Source: Escherichia coli O127:H6 str. E2348/69 (lineage in GTDB: Bacteria > Pseudomonadota > Gammaproteobacteria > Enterobacterales > Enterobacteriaceae). Taken from it: a stretch of DNA of 64,000 nt. The position numbers were made by a program. Within the stretch, counting starts at the first letter, position 1. Each line of letters begins with the position of its first letter. Location: assembly GCF_000026545.1 (NCBI RefSeq), contig NC_011601.1. One strand, given 5' to 3'. Positions 21,001 through 27,000 of this stretch are shown one piece after another.

Positions 21001-24000
21001 AATATGCCTGATGGTGCAACACCATCAGGCATATTAACTTATGCTTTCAGTACAGCCAGAGCTGCTTCGTAATCCGGCTCGGTGGTGATTTCATCCACCA
21101 GCTGGCTGAAAATCACATTGTCATTTTCATCAATAACCACAACGGCACGCGCTGCCAGACCTTTCAGTGGGCCATCAGCAATTGCCACACCGTAGGCTTG
21201 CAGGAATTCAGCGTTACGGAAAGTGGAGAGGGTGATAACGTTGTTCAGACCTTCTGCGCCGCAGAAACGAGACTGGGCGAACGGCAGATCGGCAGAGATA
21301 CACAGCACAACGGTGTTGTCGATCTCGGTTGCCAGTTGGTTAAACTTACGCACTGATGCGGCGCAAACACCGGTATCAATACTCGGGAAAATGTTCAGCA
21401 CTTTGCGTTTACCCGCAAACTGACCGAGGGTGACGTCAGACAGATCTTTTGCCACGAGAGTAAAAGTCTGCGCTTTGCTACCCGCCTGCGGGATGGAATT
21501 GGCGACTGTAACCGGGTTGCCCTGGAAATGAACGGTTTGTGACATGATTATCTTTCCTGTTTACATATAGTTAACGTCACACCTAGTTTATGCTAACTGT
21601 CAATAACACAGCAAACGCTATTTGCGCTTAATCCGCAGACCACCGCGACAACAAGGAGTAAAGATGAGAACCGTTAAGGTATTTGAGGAGGCCTGGCCCT
21701 TACATACCCCGTTTGTGATTGCTCGGGGAAGTCGCAGTGAAGCGCGCGTGGTGGTGGTTGAACTGGAAGAAGAGGGTATTAAAGGCACCGGCGAATGCAC
21801 GCCGTATCCGCGTTATGGGGAAAGTGATGCCTCGGTAATGGCGCAAATTATGAGCGTCGTGCCGCAATTAGAGAAAGGGTTGACACGGGAGGAGTTGCAA
21901 AAAATCCTCCCTGCCGGCGCAGCACGTAATGCGCTGGATTGTGCATTGTGGGATCTGGCGGCGCGAAAACAGCAGCAATCGCTGGCTGATTTGATCGGCA
22001 TAACGCTTCCCGAGACAGTCACCACGGCACAGACGATAGTCATCGGTACGCCTGATCAGATGGCCAATAGTGCATCAACACTCTGGCAGGCAGGCGCGAA
22101 ATTACTGAAAGTGAAGCTGGATAACCATCTTATCAGTGAGCGGATGGTGGCAATTCGCACAGCTGTGCCCGATGCGACGCTGATCGTTGATGCAAATGAA
22201 TCCTGGCGTGCAGAAGGGTTGGCGGCGCGTTGCCAGCTATTGGCAGATTTAGGCGTTGCGATGCTTGAACAACCGCTTTCTGCGCAGGACGATGCGGCGC
22301 TGGAGAATTTTATTCATCCGTTACCGATTTGTGCTGATGAAAGTTGTCATACTCGTAGCAATCTGAAGGCGCTGAAAGGGCGCTATGAGATGGTTAACAT
22401 TAAGCTTGATAAAACCGGTGGTCTGACGGAAGCGCTGGCGCTGGCGACTGAAGCGCGTGCACAAGGTTTTCGTCTGATGCTGGGCTGCATGTTGTGTACC
22501 TCTCGTGCCATTAGCGCCGCTTTACCGCTGGTGCCGCAGGTCAGTTTCGCCGATCTTGACGGACCGACCTGGCTGGCGGTAGATGTGGAACCGGCGCTTC
22601 AGTTCACGACGGGCGAATTGCATCTTTAGGATGCCAGCGCAGCAAGTTTGCCATCGCAAAGAGATATTTTTCGCTGGCTTCGTCGGAGGAGATGGGTGGA
22701 AACTCTGCGGTGATGCAATGCAAGTTGAGATCTGCACACCAACTGCCGAAAGAGCCAGGCGTTTCATAACCGACGCTGGTTACCAGGGGCAATTCAAACG
22801 CCTGGGCCAGCCATTCACCTAATTCGCTGTGTCTGGGATCTTCAATACAGGCCAGCGGATCGTGGAATGAGACCACCCAGGCAGGTTGAATGCGGTGTAT
22901 AAGTTGGCACAGCGCCTGGGTTTCAGGTTCGGAGCCAGGTTTGTCACCTGTCAGTAATACAACATCACGTTCTTCAGCGGCGCTGTTCCAGCGATAAACT
23001 GTTTCACCTTCCTTCCAGTTTGCTGCCGGAAAGTTTCGGTTTAAATCCACACCATTAGCATTGGCCCGTAACCCTAACTGGCAGCCGTCAGGATTCACAC
23101 ACAGCACCACATGATGGCGGCGCAAAGAAGGTGTCAAAGTCCGCAGAGCACAGGAGAGCGTGACGATCGAAGAGTTTTCATCACCGTGAGTGCCAGCCAG
23201 AATCAAACCACTTTCGTGACTGGCTGCAGGGGCCGGAAACCAGATTAACGGCGCGCCCAATAATGAACGTCCGTAATGTTCTGTTCCGGGCGGAAATGCG
23301 CCGCGTTCGGCGCGTGGGCGAGTTACGGTCATGATCGTCTCTGGTTCAGGAAGTATTACAGGCAGTGTTGTGCAAATTTTGCGGATTATCAAATCCTTTT
23401 CTTCAACGCTATGTCATCGATCTTGTATCACTTTTTTGCCGGAAGTTGTTTGTATTTTCATTGATGTGCAGATATTAGAATTGTCGTAATGTTATATACA
23501 TGGCGTATTTTATTCTTACTGGTTCTACACATGTTAATCGCATCTGATTGATCAGTTCACCTTAATAAGTTTAATAAATCGTACTGCACATAGTACAGTA
23601 CGATGGTAGCTATATAATTGATTTACATGAAGAAGGGCTTATCACTATCAGTCCCGGGTTGATTGATGCCTATATTCTCACCAATGTGTTTCTCAGGTTT
23701 ATCGATGATATCTGTGATTAATGCTGCGACACTCTTACGTGATACGATCGTACCTTTGAATGGTTCATTGCGTGAGGTAAGCTCATAATCAATAATATCT
23801 TCATCAGTCAGCCAGGCAGGGCGAAGAATTGTATATTCCAGTCCAGAAGCCTCAATTGCATCCGCAGCCCTGCGGAATGGTTTTAGGGGTTCACCAATAA
23901 CTGCATTATTCCATTCGCCAAATTTTCCTGGAACTTCATCATAAATACCGAGTGAAAGAACAAAGATCAGACGTTTAATATCACAGGCTTTCATCGCAGC

Positions 24001-27000
24001 GATCACTGAATTTGCCTGAATATCTAAATCTTCCCCCGTAAGGTTGGCATACACAACATCCTGTCCCTGCATGGCCTGCTTAAGTGCTGCATGATTCAGT
24101 ACATCCCCCATAATAATCTTGCTATTAGTTGGATAGGGTTTGTGGATTTTTGCTGGCTGACGGGCAAATAAAGTTTGTTTAATGGTTTGTTTATCTGCCA
24201 GTTGATTAATCACATGGCGGGCTATCTGACCGCCAGCACCAAGAATCAGTACATTTTTCATGAAACTTTTCCCAGATTATTGGCAGCAATATGCCTGGCC
24301 ATATCACTATTACGGATTTGAATATGTTTCATTACAGAGTTTCCTCAAAGAACGGAGCTAATACTGAAATTGCTTCAGCCACATAGACTTTGCCGTCATA
24401 AAGATCCATATGGTTTGCGCCTTCAACAATGTGATAGCGTTTATCCTGGCTTGATGCTCGATCGTACAGGTCGTCACTCATCCATTTGCTCCCAGCCTGG
24501 CTGCCCGCCACAATCTGTATCGGCTGAGTCAGGTACACTTCCGCCATATGGTAAGCATCATAGGTAATAATCTGGTTAAGGCTGCGCAAAGTAGCGTAAC
24601 CCGGTGCTGTTGGATACTGCGCGCGAGGGGTGTGGTAATACTCCCAGGCCTGACGCAGTTCTTCGTTCGGCGCATCGGACTCCTTCATTGGTGCCAGTGG
24701 CATAGTGGCGTATTCTCCGCTGCTAATATCGCTGGTTCGGGCGTTTGAACCCGCGTCAACGTATGGTAGGGCATCAATAGATTTCACATTGTTTTCCCAA
24801 CCATTACGGAACATCGAACCAATATTGACCGCACTAACAGTACCGATGGCCTTGATGCGGCGATCCTGAATTGCAGCATTGGCTGTATATCCTGCACCGG
24901 CACAAATTCCCATCGCACCAATTCGGGTATTGTCGACATAAGAAAGCGTTGTCAGGTAATCAATCACGGCACTGACGTCTTCAGTACGAATGTATGGGTT
25001 TTCTAACTGACGCGGCTCGCCGCCGCTTTCACCTTGATAAGATGCGTCATAAGCAATAGTGACAAATCCCTTTTCCGCCAGTTTTTCGGCATAGGTTCCG
25101 GCCGTTTGCTCTTTAACGCCCCCACCTGGGTGAGATACCACAATTGCCGGATACTGACGGGTTTCATCAAATTTTGGAGGGAAATAGATCACTGCAGACA
25201 AAGAGATGGTTGGATTATTGCTGTTAGTGAAGCTGACTTTATTATTCATCATTCCGTTCCTCATGGAGTTGTCGGTTCGTTTTAACGGTTGGTGATATCA
25301 CTATAGATATTGATCATTAAGTTGATTAGACCCAAAATCATGATTAGACCTATCATTTAAATGATTAATAGATTGTATGGAGATACTGAATGAAGCGTGA
25401 AGAAATCGCTGATCTGATGGCGTTTGTCGTTGTTGCAGAGGAGCGTAGCTTCACTCGCGCAGCAGCCCGCCTGAGCATGGCGCAGTCAGCTTTAAGCCAG
25501 ATAGTGCGCCGTATAGAAGAACGATTGGGATTGCGGCTTCTGACGCGAACCACGCGCAGCGTTGTACCCACTGAAGCGGGCGAGCATCTTTTGTCTGTTC
25601 TTGGCCCTATGTTGCATGACATAGATTCTGCCCTGACATCCCTGAGCGATCTGCAGAACCGCCCATCCGGGACAATACGTATTACTACTGTAGAACATGC
25701 AGCAAAAACGATATTGTTACCAGCTATGCGCACATTCCTGAAATCGCATCCTGAAATTGATATTCAGCTTACCATTGATTATGGTTTGACCGATGTCGTT
25801 TCTGAACGTTTTGATGCAGGCGTCCGTCTGGGTGGGGAGATGGATAAAGATATGATCGCCATTCGAATCGGGCCAGACATACCAATGGCTATTGTTGGCT
25901 CACCGGATTATTTTTCTCGCCGAAGTGCTCCAACGTCAGTGTCACAATTAATAGATCATCAGGCAATTAATTTGTATCTTCCCACATCGGGTACAGCAAA
26001 TCGCTGGAGATTAATACGCGGTGGACGTGAAGTTCGTGTTCGCATGGAAGGTCAGCTTTTACTGAATACGATAGACCTGATCATTGATGCTGCAATTGAT
26101 GGGCATGGATTGGCGTATCTACCTTATGATCAGGTTGAGCGGGCTATTAAAGAAAAAAAACTGATACGTGTTTTGGATAAATTCACACCAGATTTACCCG
26201 GTTATCACCTGTACTATCCACACCGTCGACATGCTGGCTCGGCATTCTCATTATTTATAGATAGGCTGAAGTATAAAGGTGCTGTTTAGCACTACTTGCT
26301 GATACATTAATTTAATTCTTCTCTTAACGTATTCTCAGTTCCTTTCAACGTTTTGGTTATTTTTTATTCTTCGCACAATGGCGACAGATGCTGATTATGA
26401 TACCGAAAACGGGTTTGAATGTGCGAAGCCCGAACGTAGTGTTCGGAGTTCTATGTGCTTTACCGCATTTTGGAGACTATTATTTACACTAAATCTGATT
26501 TGATATATTGATACTTAAAACATTTGATGCTTCCTTTGTCACTTTTTTGATGGAAGTTGTTTGCATTTCTTTAAAGCGAAACAAATAATTACGCATCAAT
26601 TTTAATGTCGGTTAGAGGGAAACTTATGAAGCACTCTGTTTCAGTCACGTGTTGTGCGCTGTTGGTCAGCAGCATTTCTCTTTCGTATGCTGCTGAAGTT
26701 CCGAGCGGCACAGTACTGGCAGAGAAGCAGGAGCTGGTGCGCCACATTAAAGATGAGCCAGCGTCGCTGGATCCCGCTAAAGCCGTGGGCCTGCCGGAGA
26801 TTCAGGTCATTCGCGATCTGTTTGAAGGACTGGTGAATCAGAACGAGAAAGGGGAGATTGTCCCCGGCGTTGCGACTCAGTGGAAAAGTAATGACAACCG
26901 TATCTGGACTTTTACCCTGCGCGATAACGCAAAATGGGCGGATGGCACACCGGTAACGGCGCAAGATTTTGTCTACAGCTGGCAACGTCTGGTGGACCCG

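What the first reader, a model, noticed from the sequence alone, without database searches (positions are those of the whole stretch)
23428..26569. A 31-bp motif shared (27/31) by the mpaA upstream region and the mppA promoter region
tcacttttttgccggaagttgtttgtatttt (23428-23458) and tcacttttttgatggaagttgtttgcatttc (26539-26569) lie in the control regions of two functionally linked murein-peptide recycling genes 3 kb apart (MppA binds murein tripeptide, MpaA cleaves it, and YcjG epimerises the product). At mppA the motif ends at a TTGCAT-17-AATAAT promoter. At mpaA it is on the opposite strand relative to the gene and would point a similar promoter (TTGTAT-17-TATTAG) toward the ymjC side, so it might instead mark an antisense or small transcript. 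I know of no described common regulator for these genes.
Basis: seen in the sequence. Interest (0 to 1): 0.55.

Follow-up and report, generated by a model that had tools for sequence, protein, structure and literature searches.

The report
Repeat flanking a foreign gene insert
The two copies of the 31-base motif are best explained not as binding sites for a shared regulator but as a piece of the old mppA promoter, duplicated when a 3-kb foreign gene cassette (which includes the regulator gene pgrR) was inserted between the once-adjacent genes mpaA and mppA in the E. coli lineage.

Summary
The copies at 23428-23458 and 26539-26569 match at 27/31 positions, extend to 37 nt at 84%, and lie 3111 bp apart. 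The motif occurs nowhere else in the window and only at this locus in 5,418 complete E. coli genomes.

The shared-regulator interpretation is not supported. In E. albertii, Citrobacter, Enterobacter, Kluyvera, Serratia, Yersinia, Erwinia and even Vibrio (30 loci), mpaA and mppA are adjacent and divergent. In the 14 Enterobacteriaceae spacers I aligned (usually ~180 bp), 13 hold one copy of the motif. That copy is the conserved mppA promoter, from -58 to -28, including the -35 hexamer TTGCAT.

E. coli carries a 3.1-4.0 kb cassette (SDR, ycjY, pgrR) inserted in this spacer, and the motif is the direct repeat on each side. Close relatives of the cassette sit on Klebsiella plasmids, in one ICE-like context, and at other unrelated sites in Klebsiella and Salmonella.

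About 3% of E. coli genomes (173) have the empty site with a single copy, and their flanking SNPs look ancestral. The right copy is still the mppA promoter. The left copy is probably an inert relic. PgrR, a described regulator of mpaA, is encoded inside the insert.

This is an ordinary insertion footprint. Two things remain unexplained: the unusually long duplication, and a common deletion that starts exactly at the repeat's edge.

The parts
23428..23458 (+). Left copy of the repeat (R-left; weak extension back to 23421). It is continuous with the ancestral mpaA-side spacer. In most E. coli it is identical to the ancestral sequence through ...TTGCATTT; E2348/69 has the variant TTGTAT.
   Evidence: In one search, 3,708 genomes match the ancestral 38-mer at 100%.
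26539..26569 (+). Right copy of the repeat (R-right; weak extension back to 26532). It is continuous with the ancestral mppA-side spacer and carries the derived GCC>GAT change.
23459..26538 (.). Inserted DNA between the repeat copies. It is 3,080 bp here, about 4.0 kb in O157/O111-type alleles and about 2.4 kb in K-12-type alleles. It is absent from all non-E. coli relatives examined and from 173 E. coli genomes.
23552..26290 (.). Core of the cassette. It is 76-80% identical in DNA to an SDR / alpha-beta-hydrolase / LysR module found on Klebsiella plasmids, next to ICE-like genes in one locus, and at other unrelated sites in Klebsiella and Salmonella.
23459..23551 (.). Left filler DNA of unknown origin between R-left and the conserved cassette core.
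   Evidence: no homology to the other cassettes; no homology to the mppA side.
23578..23604 (-). Hairpin with a 12-bp stem and 3-nt loop, followed by a U/A-rich tail, just after the SDR stop codon. It is a possible weak terminator between the cassette operon and mpaA, and it is removed by the K-12-type deletion.
   Evidence: z = -2.6. The simple terminator scan did not call it.
23623..24261 (-). SDR/NmrA-like oxidoreductase gene, 212 aa. This is the intact form of the K-12 ymjC/ymjD pseudogene.
24332..25252 (-). ycjY, an alpha/beta hydrolase gene.
25390..26289 (+). pgrR (ycjZ), a LysR-family regulator gene divergent from ycjY.
   Evidence: literature.
26291..26538 (.). Right filler DNA. RefSeq annotates a queH pseudogene fragment here in the O157 and O111 genomes, at roughly window 26388-26462; I did not confirm the reading frame.
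26561..26589 (+). Predicted mppA core promoter: -35 TTGCAT, 17-nt spacer, -10 AATAAT. The -35 hexamer lies inside R-right.
   Evidence: scan; conserved in 13 of 14 aligned spacers. No transcription start site data were found.
26626..28239 (+). mppA, the murein tripeptide binding protein gene.
22604..23332 (-). mpaA, the murein tripeptide amidase gene.
23333..23427 (.). The mpaA-proximal half of the ancestral spacer. It contains a block conserved in most of the aligned spacers, GCAGTGTTGTGCAAA...ATCAAAT (about 23362-23395). On the - strand I read this as TTGATA(23392-23387)-17-AACACT(23369-23364), a candidate mpaA promoter.
   Evidence: for the conservation; the promoter reading is my inference from the sequence.

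Best explanation
The two motif copies are direct repeats that flank a horizontally acquired cassette. The cassette holds the SDR and ycjY genes in one direction and pgrR in the other. It was inserted into the short divergent mpaA-mppA promoter region on the lineage leading to E. coli.

Shown: the ancestral spacer (182 bp in E. albertii and in cassette-free E. coli) holds one copy, TCACTTTTTTGCCGGAAGTTGTTTGCATTTC. It spans about -58 to -28 of the mppA promoter, so it covers the T-rich upstream region and the -35 hexamer TTGCAT. The insertion left one copy on each side.

Inferred: R-right, joined to the unchanged -10 region, still works as the mppA promoter. R-left, now 96 bp upstream of the mpaA start codon and pointing into the cassette, has lost its -10 partner and is most likely an inert relic. 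The copies have since drifted apart: GCC>GAT in the right copy in all alleles seen, and C>T in the -35-like hexamer of the left copy in the E2348/69, VTB96929v and O157 alleles I read.

One consequence of the insertion is that mpaA now lies downstream of the PgrR-controlled ycjY operon. That would explain why a foreign LysR regulator appears to control a peptidoglycan-recycling gene.

The insertion mechanism is not resolved. The candidates are single-crossover (Campbell-type) integration of a circle at a 30-37 bp site, by a site-specific recombinase or by RecA, or repair of a widely staggered break.
For: 1. The repeat is real, unique to this locus and non-random.

2. In 30 loci from other Enterobacterales and a Vibrio, mppA and mpaA are adjacent and divergent, with no SDR, ycjY or pgrR homologue between them.

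3. I aligned 14 Enterobacteriaceae spacers. Thirteen show a single motif copy with conserved TTTGCATTT and GAAACAAATAAT blocks.

4. 173 of 5,418 E. coli genomes have mpaA and mppA adjacent. In the two I read, the spacer is 182 bp with a single copy, GCC...GCATTTC, identical to the inferred ancestor. The size difference from the window equals the 3111-bp repeat spacing to within 1 bp.

5. The two empty-site haplotypes I read share four states with E. albertii (window 23225, 23246, 23285, 23415). All six cassette-bearing alleles carry the derived state there, which argues that the empty site is ancestral and not a recent deletion.

6. The cassette is foreign. PgrR homologues of 88-89% identity, and 76-80% DNA identity over 23552-26290, occur on conjugative Klebsiella plasmids, beside ICE-like genes, and at other unrelated Klebsiella and Salmonella sites. 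There the module is part of a larger OYE / SDR / SDR / hydrolase / hydrolase operon divergent from the LysR gene, with no mpaA or mppA nearby.

7. Similarity stops at the repeat ends; the flanks are no more alike than shuffled sequence.

8. The promoter scan calls the mppA site but nothing at the left copy.
Against: - No recombinase or transposase gene and no terminal inverted repeats lie in the insert. A duplication of 30-37 bp is far longer than transposase target duplications, so the mechanism is unexplained.
- The polarity argument (empty site ancestral) rests on only two empty-site and six occupied haplotypes. E. fergusonii, E. marmotae and the cryptic clades were not sampled.
- Promoter function of the right copy, and inertness of the left copy, are inferred from consensus and conservation. 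I found no transcription start site or reporter data.
- The left copy is unchanged from the ancestral sequence in about 68% of genomes, and a common deletion stops exactly at its edge. This could hint at retained function for mpaA, although 31 bp gives little power to detect selection.
Confidence: 0.85

Rival explanations
1. Shared cis-regulatory element. The 31-bp motif is an operator or activator site for one regulator that co-ordinates mpaA and mppA, and selection maintains both copies for that reason.
For: The ancestral single copy lies in a divergent promoter region. Its 5' part (an invariant TCA, a T-run and AAG) is moderately conserved across genera, so it could contain a binding site that once served both genes. 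After the insertion each gene kept a copy. The left copy is unchanged from the ancestor in most E. coli. The K-12-type deletion spares it exactly. The motif contains a weak dyad, ACTT-N9-AAGT, by my reading of the sequence.
Against: The existence of two copies is fully explained by the insertion. There is no third copy anywhere in E. coli genomes or upstream of ycjG. The upstream half of the right copy is the part that has changed (GCC>GAT, plus an indel in O157). No regulator is reported for mppA in the PgrR regulon list. The dyad is only 4 bp long.
Confidence: 0.07
2. The repeats came first and act as deletion substrates. On this view the cassette is old in Escherichia, and the single-copy arrangement in 173 E. 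coli genomes (and in E. albertii) arose by recombination or slippage between the two repeats.
For: The single-copy allele is exactly what a crossover inside GGAAGTTGTTTG would give: GCC from the left copy and GCATTTC from the right. About 31 bp is near the lower limit for RecA-dependent recombination, by my knowledge of published minimal-homology estimates. The 40 listed empty-site genomes are identical across the 551-bp junction query, and several are named ST648, so most of them could trace to one event.
Against: The single-copy state is universal in the 30 outgroup loci, so it is ancestral at the family level. The two E. coli empty-site haplotypes differ from each other. They share four outgroup states that every occupied allele has lost, which is not expected for recent deletions nested among occupied alleles.
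Confidence: 0.2
3. The left copy is an active promoter (TTG[C/T]AT-17-TATTAG) that drives an antisense or small RNA across the 3' end of the SDR gene.
For: A -35 hexamer inherited from a real promoter is present. TATTAG sits at the right 17-nt spacing in all five full-length SDR alleles I read (E2348/69, VTB96929v, O157, O111, ST69).
Against: TATTAG lacks the near-invariant final T, and the scan reports no promoter. There is no Rfam family here. No constitutive sigma-70 promoter was reported for this spacer; the paper has no mention of mpaA (PMC3946193). The -10-like hexamer and everything downstream of it are deleted in 2,309 genomes, including the K-12-type laboratory strain I examined.
Confidence: 0.08
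4. Chance similarity between two AT-rich promoter regions.
For: Both regions are AT-rich and lie in intergenic DNA.
Against: No match appeared in 100 shuffles at up to 3 mismatches. The copies sit exactly at the two junctions of an insertion defined independently by comparison with empty sites.
Confidence: 0.005

Closest known systems
Genomic islets flanked by direct repeats (attL/attR-like) from integration of foreign DNA at a chromosomal site
   Same: Foreign, patchily distributed cargo genes are involved. Relatives and a minority of strains have an empty site with a single repeat copy. The two flanking copies share an identical 12-bp stretch here (GGAAGTTGTTTG; 17 bp, through GCATTT, in alleles with the ancestral left copy), with imperfect similarity around it. 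Related cassettes sit on plasmids and beside ICE-like genes.
   Different: There is no integrase or excisionase gene. The target is a promoter, not a tRNA or tmRNA gene. The insert is only 3-4 kb with no recognisable element ends, and no excised circular form is known.
Transposon or IS target-site duplications
   Same: Direct repeats of target DNA lie immediately on both sides of the inserted DNA.
   Different: Known duplications of this kind are 2-14 bp and exact (from my knowledge of IS families). This one is 30-37 bp. There is no transposase and there are no terminal inverted repeats.
Regulon operator motifs shared by co-regulated promoters (for example LysR-type T-N11-A boxes)
   Same: A similar sequence lies upstream of two functionally linked genes, and a LysR regulator gene (pgrR) is next door.
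   Different: There are only two copies in the genome, both derived from one ancestral copy. The reported PgrR SELEX peak at this locus is the ycjY/ycjZ spacer, not these sites. mppA is not a listed PgrR target.
Sigma-70 promoter with a T-rich upstream (UP-like) region
   Same: The right copy supplies -35 TTGCAT and a T-run at about -52 to -47. It is followed at 17 nt by AATAAT, and this arrangement is conserved across the aligned spacers.
   Different: The transcription start is not mapped, and UP-element function has not been tested. The left copy has the -35 hexamer but no usable -10.

Membership tests
Insertion-flanking direct repeat (genomic islet with an empty site in relatives) | The repeat copies lie exactly at the two junctions between conserved flanks and the inserted DNA | tested here: met
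   Aligning the empty-site alleles with both window junctions shows the left flank plus one hybrid copy plus the right flank. No homology extends beyond the repeat.
Insertion-flanking direct repeat (genomic islet with an empty site in relatives) | Related genomes carry the uninterrupted site with a single copy | tested here: met
   Thirty non-E. coli loci have mppA and mpaA adjacent; 13 of the 14 aligned spacers show one motif copy. 173 E. coli genomes have the empty site.
Insertion-flanking direct repeat (genomic islet with an empty site in relatives) | The inserted DNA is of foreign origin and occurs in other genomic contexts | tested here: met
   Homologous modules occur on Klebsiella plasmids, beside ICE-like genes in one locus, and at other unrelated Klebsiella and Salmonella sites.
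Site-specific integrative element (attL/attR) | An integrase or recombinase gene inside the element, next to one att site | tested here: not met
   Only the SDR, ycjY and pgrR genes are annotated in the insert (plus a second hydrolase gene and a queH fragment in the O157/O111 alleles).
Site-specific integrative element (attL/attR) | Excision to a circular form that regenerates attB | not testable with these tools
   Empty sites exist, but their flank SNPs suggest they are ancestral and not excision products.
Transposon / IS target-site duplication | A short (2-14 bp) exact duplication, terminal inverted repeats and a transposase | tested here: not met
   The repeat is 30-37 bp. No inverted repeats lie at the junctions, and there is no transposase ORF.
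Shared transcription-factor binding motif (regulon) | The motif is present independently at the orthologous promoters of both genes in other species | tested here: not met
   Other species have one shared spacer with one copy.
Shared transcription-factor binding motif (regulon) | The motif recurs at other members of the pathway or regulon | tested here: not met
   There are two matches in the 64-kb window, none upstream of ycjG, and a median of two places per E. coli genome.
Shared transcription-factor binding motif (regulon) | A protein binds the motif and changes expression | not testable with these tools
   The PgrR regulon table lists its SELEX peak at this locus at ycjY/ycjZ, not at these sites. 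A CRP ChIP peak is reported for ycjZ/mppA in ETEC, but the listed site is absent from this window.
Sigma-70 promoter | -35 and -10 hexamers at 16-18 nt spacing, with A at position 2 and T at position 6 of the -10 | tested here: met
   This holds for the right copy only: the scan calls the site as TTTGCA-18-AATAAT, which in the other register is TTGCAT-17-AATAAT, and it is conserved across the aligned spacers. The left copy fails the scan.
Sigma-70 promoter | A mapped transcription start site | not testable with these tools
   No start-site data were found in the searchable literature.
Dispersed bacterial repeat family (REP/BIME, ERIC, IRU and similar) | Many copies per genome | tested here: not met
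   Median of two places per genome, consistent with both at this locus.

The most novel reading that the evidence does not exclude
The repeat may mark a specific, break-prone or recombinase-recognised site in the mppA promoter. On this reading, an unrecognised integration mechanism that produces a 30-37 bp duplication placed the cassette there. The same nucleotide was then used again as the left breakpoint of the 665-bp deletion now carried by 43% of E. coli. A related variant is that the duplication was retained because it gave both mpaA and mppA their own copy of a once-shared upstream control element.
Probability: 0.1. Interest if true: 0.6.

Novelty: new member of a known kind. Interest (0 to 1): 0.3.

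Why it matters
The result removes a tempting false lead. The similarity between the mpaA and mppA control regions is a scar of an insertion, not evidence for a regulon.

It also changes how the locus should be read.
- **PgrR.** This regulator is described as the 'peptidoglycan recycling regulator'. It is encoded on a foreign cassette whose relatives sit on Klebsiella plasmids and beside ICE-like genes, next to hydrolase and reductase genes with no obvious link to cell wall recycling.
- **Its control of mpaA.** This control is probably a side effect of where the cassette landed, because mpaA is now downstream of ycjY. That is an inference, not a test.
- **Variation within E. coli.** About 3% of genomes lack the cassette. 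About 43%, the K-12-type allele, carry a deletion that removes a terminator-like hairpin between the cassette operon and mpaA. The rest have longer forms. Regulation of mpaA worked out in K-12 may therefore not hold for other strains such as E2348/69 or ST648.

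Tried and rejected
1. **Longer homology.** I looked for homology beyond the repeat, which would indicate a larger decayed duplication of the spacer. Local alignments of both pairs of flanks scored no better than shuffles.
2. **R-like sequence elsewhere.** I searched for an R-like sequence next to the homologous cassettes in Klebsiella and Salmonella, as a possible attP or donor copy. None was found with up to 8 substitutions.
3. **Terminal inverted repeats.** None lie at the insert ends. 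The only pair near the two ends is 16 nt at 81%, placed 122 and 75 bp inside the junctions.
4. **Known RNA families.** Over 22500-27000 the only hit was a sub-threshold RAGATH-10 match inside pgrR, at 24 bits against a gathering score of 41. I rejected it.
5. **CRP site.** I looked for a CRP site in the motif because a CRP ChIP-seq peak is listed for ycjZ/mppA in ETEC H10407. The listed 16-mer is absent from the window, and the motif matches the CRP consensus poorly.
6. **Sigma-54 reading.** I read the conserved GGCAGTGTTGTGCA block as a possible sigma-54 promoter. The GG-to-GC spacing is one base short, so I dropped it (my reading of the sequence only).
7. **Literature.** The original PgrR paper (PubMed 23301696) is not held in the library, so PgrR data come second-hand from tables in PMC5934670 and PMC3946193. 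No transcription start site for mppA or mpaA was found.
8. **Sampling limit.** It returned E. albertii but no other non-coli Escherichia species and no Salmonella mpaA locus.

Full report
**1.

The window is E. coli E2348/69; a 4.5-kb query is 100% identical to that strain.
- Left: TCACTTTTTTGCCGGAAGTTGTTTGTATTTT, 23428-23458.
- Right: TCACTTTTTTGATGGAAGTTGTTTGCATTTC, 26539-26569.

They match at 27 of 31 positions and are in direct orientation. The repeat finder extends the pair to 37 nt at 84% identity, with a spacing of 3111 bp. A degenerate pattern allowing 3 mismatches finds only these two sites in 64 kb, and none in 100 shuffles. Against 5,426 complete E. coli genomes, a 41-nt version finds a median of two places per genome, and the total fits two copies at this one locus. 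So this is not a dispersed repeat family.

**2. Gene context**

From the RefSeq annotation of the same strain, in window coordinates:

| Gene | Coordinates | Strand |
|---|---|---|
| ycjG | 21664-22629 | + |
| mpaA | 22604-23332 | - |
| SDR oxidoreductase (212 aa) | 23623-24261 | - |
| ycjY | 24332-25252 | - |
| pgrR | 25390-26289 | + |
| mppA | 26626-28239 | + |

The SDR gene is the intact form of what K-12 carries as the ymjC/ymjD pseudogene. The left copy lies between mpaA and the SDR gene. The right copy lies between pgrR and mppA.

**3. What relatives show**

I built an MpaA alignment and used it to fetch mpaA loci from one genome per species. I then mapped the window's proteins onto those loci.

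- In 30 loci, mppA lies immediately upstream of mpaA and is divergently transcribed. These include E. albertii, two Citrobacter, Enterobacter, Pluralibacter, Kluyvera, Phytobacter, Serratia, Erwinia, Pantoea, Pectobacterium, Yersinia, Hafnia and a Vibrio.
- None has an SDR, ycjY or pgrR homologue between the two genes.
- The spacer is about 180 bp in most of them, and exactly 182 bp in E. albertii.

I aligned 14 Enterobacteriaceae spacers. Thirteen show one copy of the motif. The best-conserved parts are TTTGCATTT and, 17 nt after the TTGCAT hexamer, GAAACAAATAAT. This is a sigma-70-type promoter facing mppA, and the scan also calls it in the window. The motif therefore corresponds to roughly -58 to -28 of the ancestral mppA promoter.

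**4. The E. coli arrangement is an insertion flanked by a duplication**

A few E. coli genomes matched the 4.5-kb query over only 1,389 bp. Two were read in detail. In both, mpaA and mppA are 182 bp apart. Aligned to the window, these alleles consist of:
- the mpaA-side flank;
- one motif copy, TCACTTTTTTGCCGGAAGTTGTTTGCATTTC;
- the mppA-side flank.

The window is the same except that 3,080 bp of other DNA plus a second motif copy lie in between. A junction query shows that 173 of 5,418 genomes carry this empty site. Strain names among the listed hits include ST648 isolates.

In cassette-bearing alleles, the left copy keeps the ancestral GCC and the right copy has GAT. The left copy is TTGCAT in K-12-type, O111 and ST69 alleles, and TTGTAT in the E2348/69, VTB96929v and O157 alleles. 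Similarity ends at the repeat: the flanks are no more alike than shuffled sequence.

**5. Which state is ancestral within E. coli**

The single copy is what a crossover between the repeats would produce, so the sequence of the copy alone cannot decide. The flanks help.
- In the 728 bp on the mpaA side, the two empty-site haplotypes differ from each other at 17 sites.
- They show seven fixed differences from all six cassette-bearing alleles.
- At four of those sites (23225, 23246, 23285, 23415) the empty-site alleles share the E. albertii state.

That pattern fits a pre-insertion haplotype that has survived at low frequency better than recent deletions. The sample is small, so I put this sub-claim at about 0.7.

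**6. The cassette is foreign**

- PgrR homologues of 88-89% identity are scattered through Klebsiella, Raoultella, Enterobacter, Kluyvera, Citrobacter and some Salmonella; one is named as plasmid-borne in Klebsiella variicola.
- In their contexts the LysR gene is divergent from a five-gene operon: OYE reductase, adh_short SDR, NmrA-like SDR and two alpha/beta hydrolases. On plasmid pC9_001 only the NmrA-like SDR and the two hydrolases are present.
- The flanking genes differ from place to place: ICE-like genes in one locus, an ars operon, an alkyl sulfatase gene, and galactonate genes on the conjugative plasmid.
- No mpaA or mppA is nearby in any of them.
- DNA homology to the window runs from 23552 to 26290 at 76-80%.
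- The remaining 93 bp on the left (23459-23551) and 248 bp on the right (26291-26538) are filler of unknown origin. RefSeq annotates a queH pseudogene fragment in the right filler of the O157 and O111 genomes.
- No motif-like sequence accompanies the cassette elsewhere.

**7. How it most likely works now**

- **R-right** is joined to the unchanged -10 region, so it remains the -35 and upstream part of the mppA promoter. This is inferred from conservation and consensus; no start site was found.
- **R-left** kept the -35-like hexamer but now faces cassette DNA. The best -10 candidate, TATTAG, lacks the final T, and the scan finds no promoter there. No RNA family matches. In 2,309 genomes the whole region downstream of R-left is deleted. 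I therefore treat R-left as a relic.
- **The mpaA promoter** probably lies in the conserved block nearer the gene. My reading is TTGATA-17-AACACT on the - strand, at 23392-23364.
- **PgrR control of mpaA.** The insertion placed mpaA downstream of ycjY and the SDR gene in the same orientation. The literature treats ycjY-ymjDC-mpaA as a PgrR-controlled operon (Shimada et al. 2013, as tabulated in PMC5934670; ycjY/pgrR promoters in PMC3946193).
- **Hairpin.** In E2348/69 a strong hairpin follows the SDR stop codon (23578-23604). The K-12-type deletion removes it, so read-through into mpaA may differ between strains. This is inference.

**8. Mechanism of insertion: unresolved**

Thirty to 37 bp is too long for a transposase target duplication, and there is no transposase, integrase or terminal inverted repeat. 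The pattern is typical of a single-crossover (Campbell-type) integration of a circle at a short site:
- an identical 12-bp stretch (GGAAGTTGTTTG) in this window, and 17 bp (through GCATTT) in alleles that keep the ancestral left copy;
- copy-specific differences on one side (GCC versus GAT);
- decaying similarity for 7 nt beyond.

Such an integration could be site-specific, with the recombinase gene since lost, or RecA-dependent on about 30 bp of homology. Repair of a widely staggered break would also fit. I cannot tell these apart.

**9. An unexplained coincidence**

The K-12-type allele lacks window 23459-24123. Its left breakpoint is the very nucleotide at which R-left ends (...GCATTTT|ATTAGTTGG), with about 1 nt of microhomology. 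Before seeing it, I would have put the chance of this at roughly 0.5%. It could mean the junction is break-prone, or it could be luck.

**10. Comparison with what is known, and verdict**

This is a small genomic islet flanked by direct repeats, with an empty site in relatives.
- It meets the defining features of that class (membership table).
- It fails those of a transposon insertion, a regulon motif and a dispersed repeat.
- It lacks the recombinase gene needed to call it an integrative element.

I found no paper that describes the insertion or the repeat, but the kind of feature is well known.

Their promoter reading at mppA is supported. Their suggestions of a shared regulator and an antisense transcript are not. 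Interest is low to moderate. The main value is in correcting the inference, and in showing that PgrR and its link to mpaA come from a strain-variable foreign insert.

Noticed in passing
window 23459-24123; L003:1459: The K-12-type allele has a 665-bp deletion that removes the 3' two-thirds of the SDR gene, the hairpin after it and the left filler. Its left breakpoint is exactly the last base of the left repeat copy. 2,309 of 5,418 complete genomes carry this junction.
   Followed up: partly
window about 24276-24280; L091:2083-3013; L092:2098-3030: O157:H7 and O111 alleles carry a second alpha/beta-hydrolase gene (about 310 aa; frameshifted in O157 FRIK804) between the SDR gene and ycjY, as in the Klebsiella and Salmonella cassettes. 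E2348/69 and K-12-type alleles have lost about 0.9 kb here. The cassette is therefore shrinking stepwise, from about 4.0 to 3.1 to 2.4 kb.
   Followed up: partly
window about 26388-26462: RefSeq annotates a short 'epoxyqueuosine reductase QueH' pseudogene fragment between pgrR and the right repeat in the O157 and O111 genomes. It is probably donor DNA carried in with the cassette. My frame-1 translation of the equivalent window stretch was uninformative, so the frame is unconfirmed.
   Followed up: no
L005:4016-5461 (E. coli MFDS1019527): In one cassette-free strain, mppA is cut after 66 nt. A tyrosine recombinase/integrase gene and a NinB recombination-protein gene follow, which I read as a prophage. 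This neighbourhood has therefore been hit by mobile DNA more than once. The integration point is about 120 bp downstream of the motif, not in it.
   Followed up: no
window 23362-23395: The block GCAGTGTTGTGCAAA...ATCAAAT is conserved in most of the aligned spacers. On the - strand it reads TTGATA-17-AACACT, a candidate mpaA promoter or operator. No experimental data were found.
   Followed up: partly
window 23578-23604 (- strand): A 12-bp-stem hairpin with a U/A-rich tail lies directly after the SDR stop codon (z = -2.6 against shuffles). It may act as a partial terminator between the cassette operon and mpaA in strains with the full-length SDR gene.
   Followed up: partly
pgrR-mppA spacer; window 26172-26187: A CRP ChIP-seq table for ETEC H10407 (PMC4287617) lists a peak at ycjZ/mppA with the site CGTGAACCGGGTCACA. 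That 16-mer is absent from this window. The nearest CRP-like match is TTTGGATAAATTCACA, inside the 3' end of pgrR.
   Followed up: partly
E. coli genome hits H23, H37, H42; L004: Some strains carry ISVsa5 or IS5 insertions in this locus. Strain VTB96929v has two further internal deletions, corresponding to about window 23606-24172 and 24845-26060. This is more evidence that the cassette is dispensable and decaying.
   Followed up: no
window 22604-22629: ycjG and mpaA are convergent, and their 3' ends overlap by 26 bp. The close abutment or overlap is kept in most Enterobacteriaceae loci.
   Followed up: no
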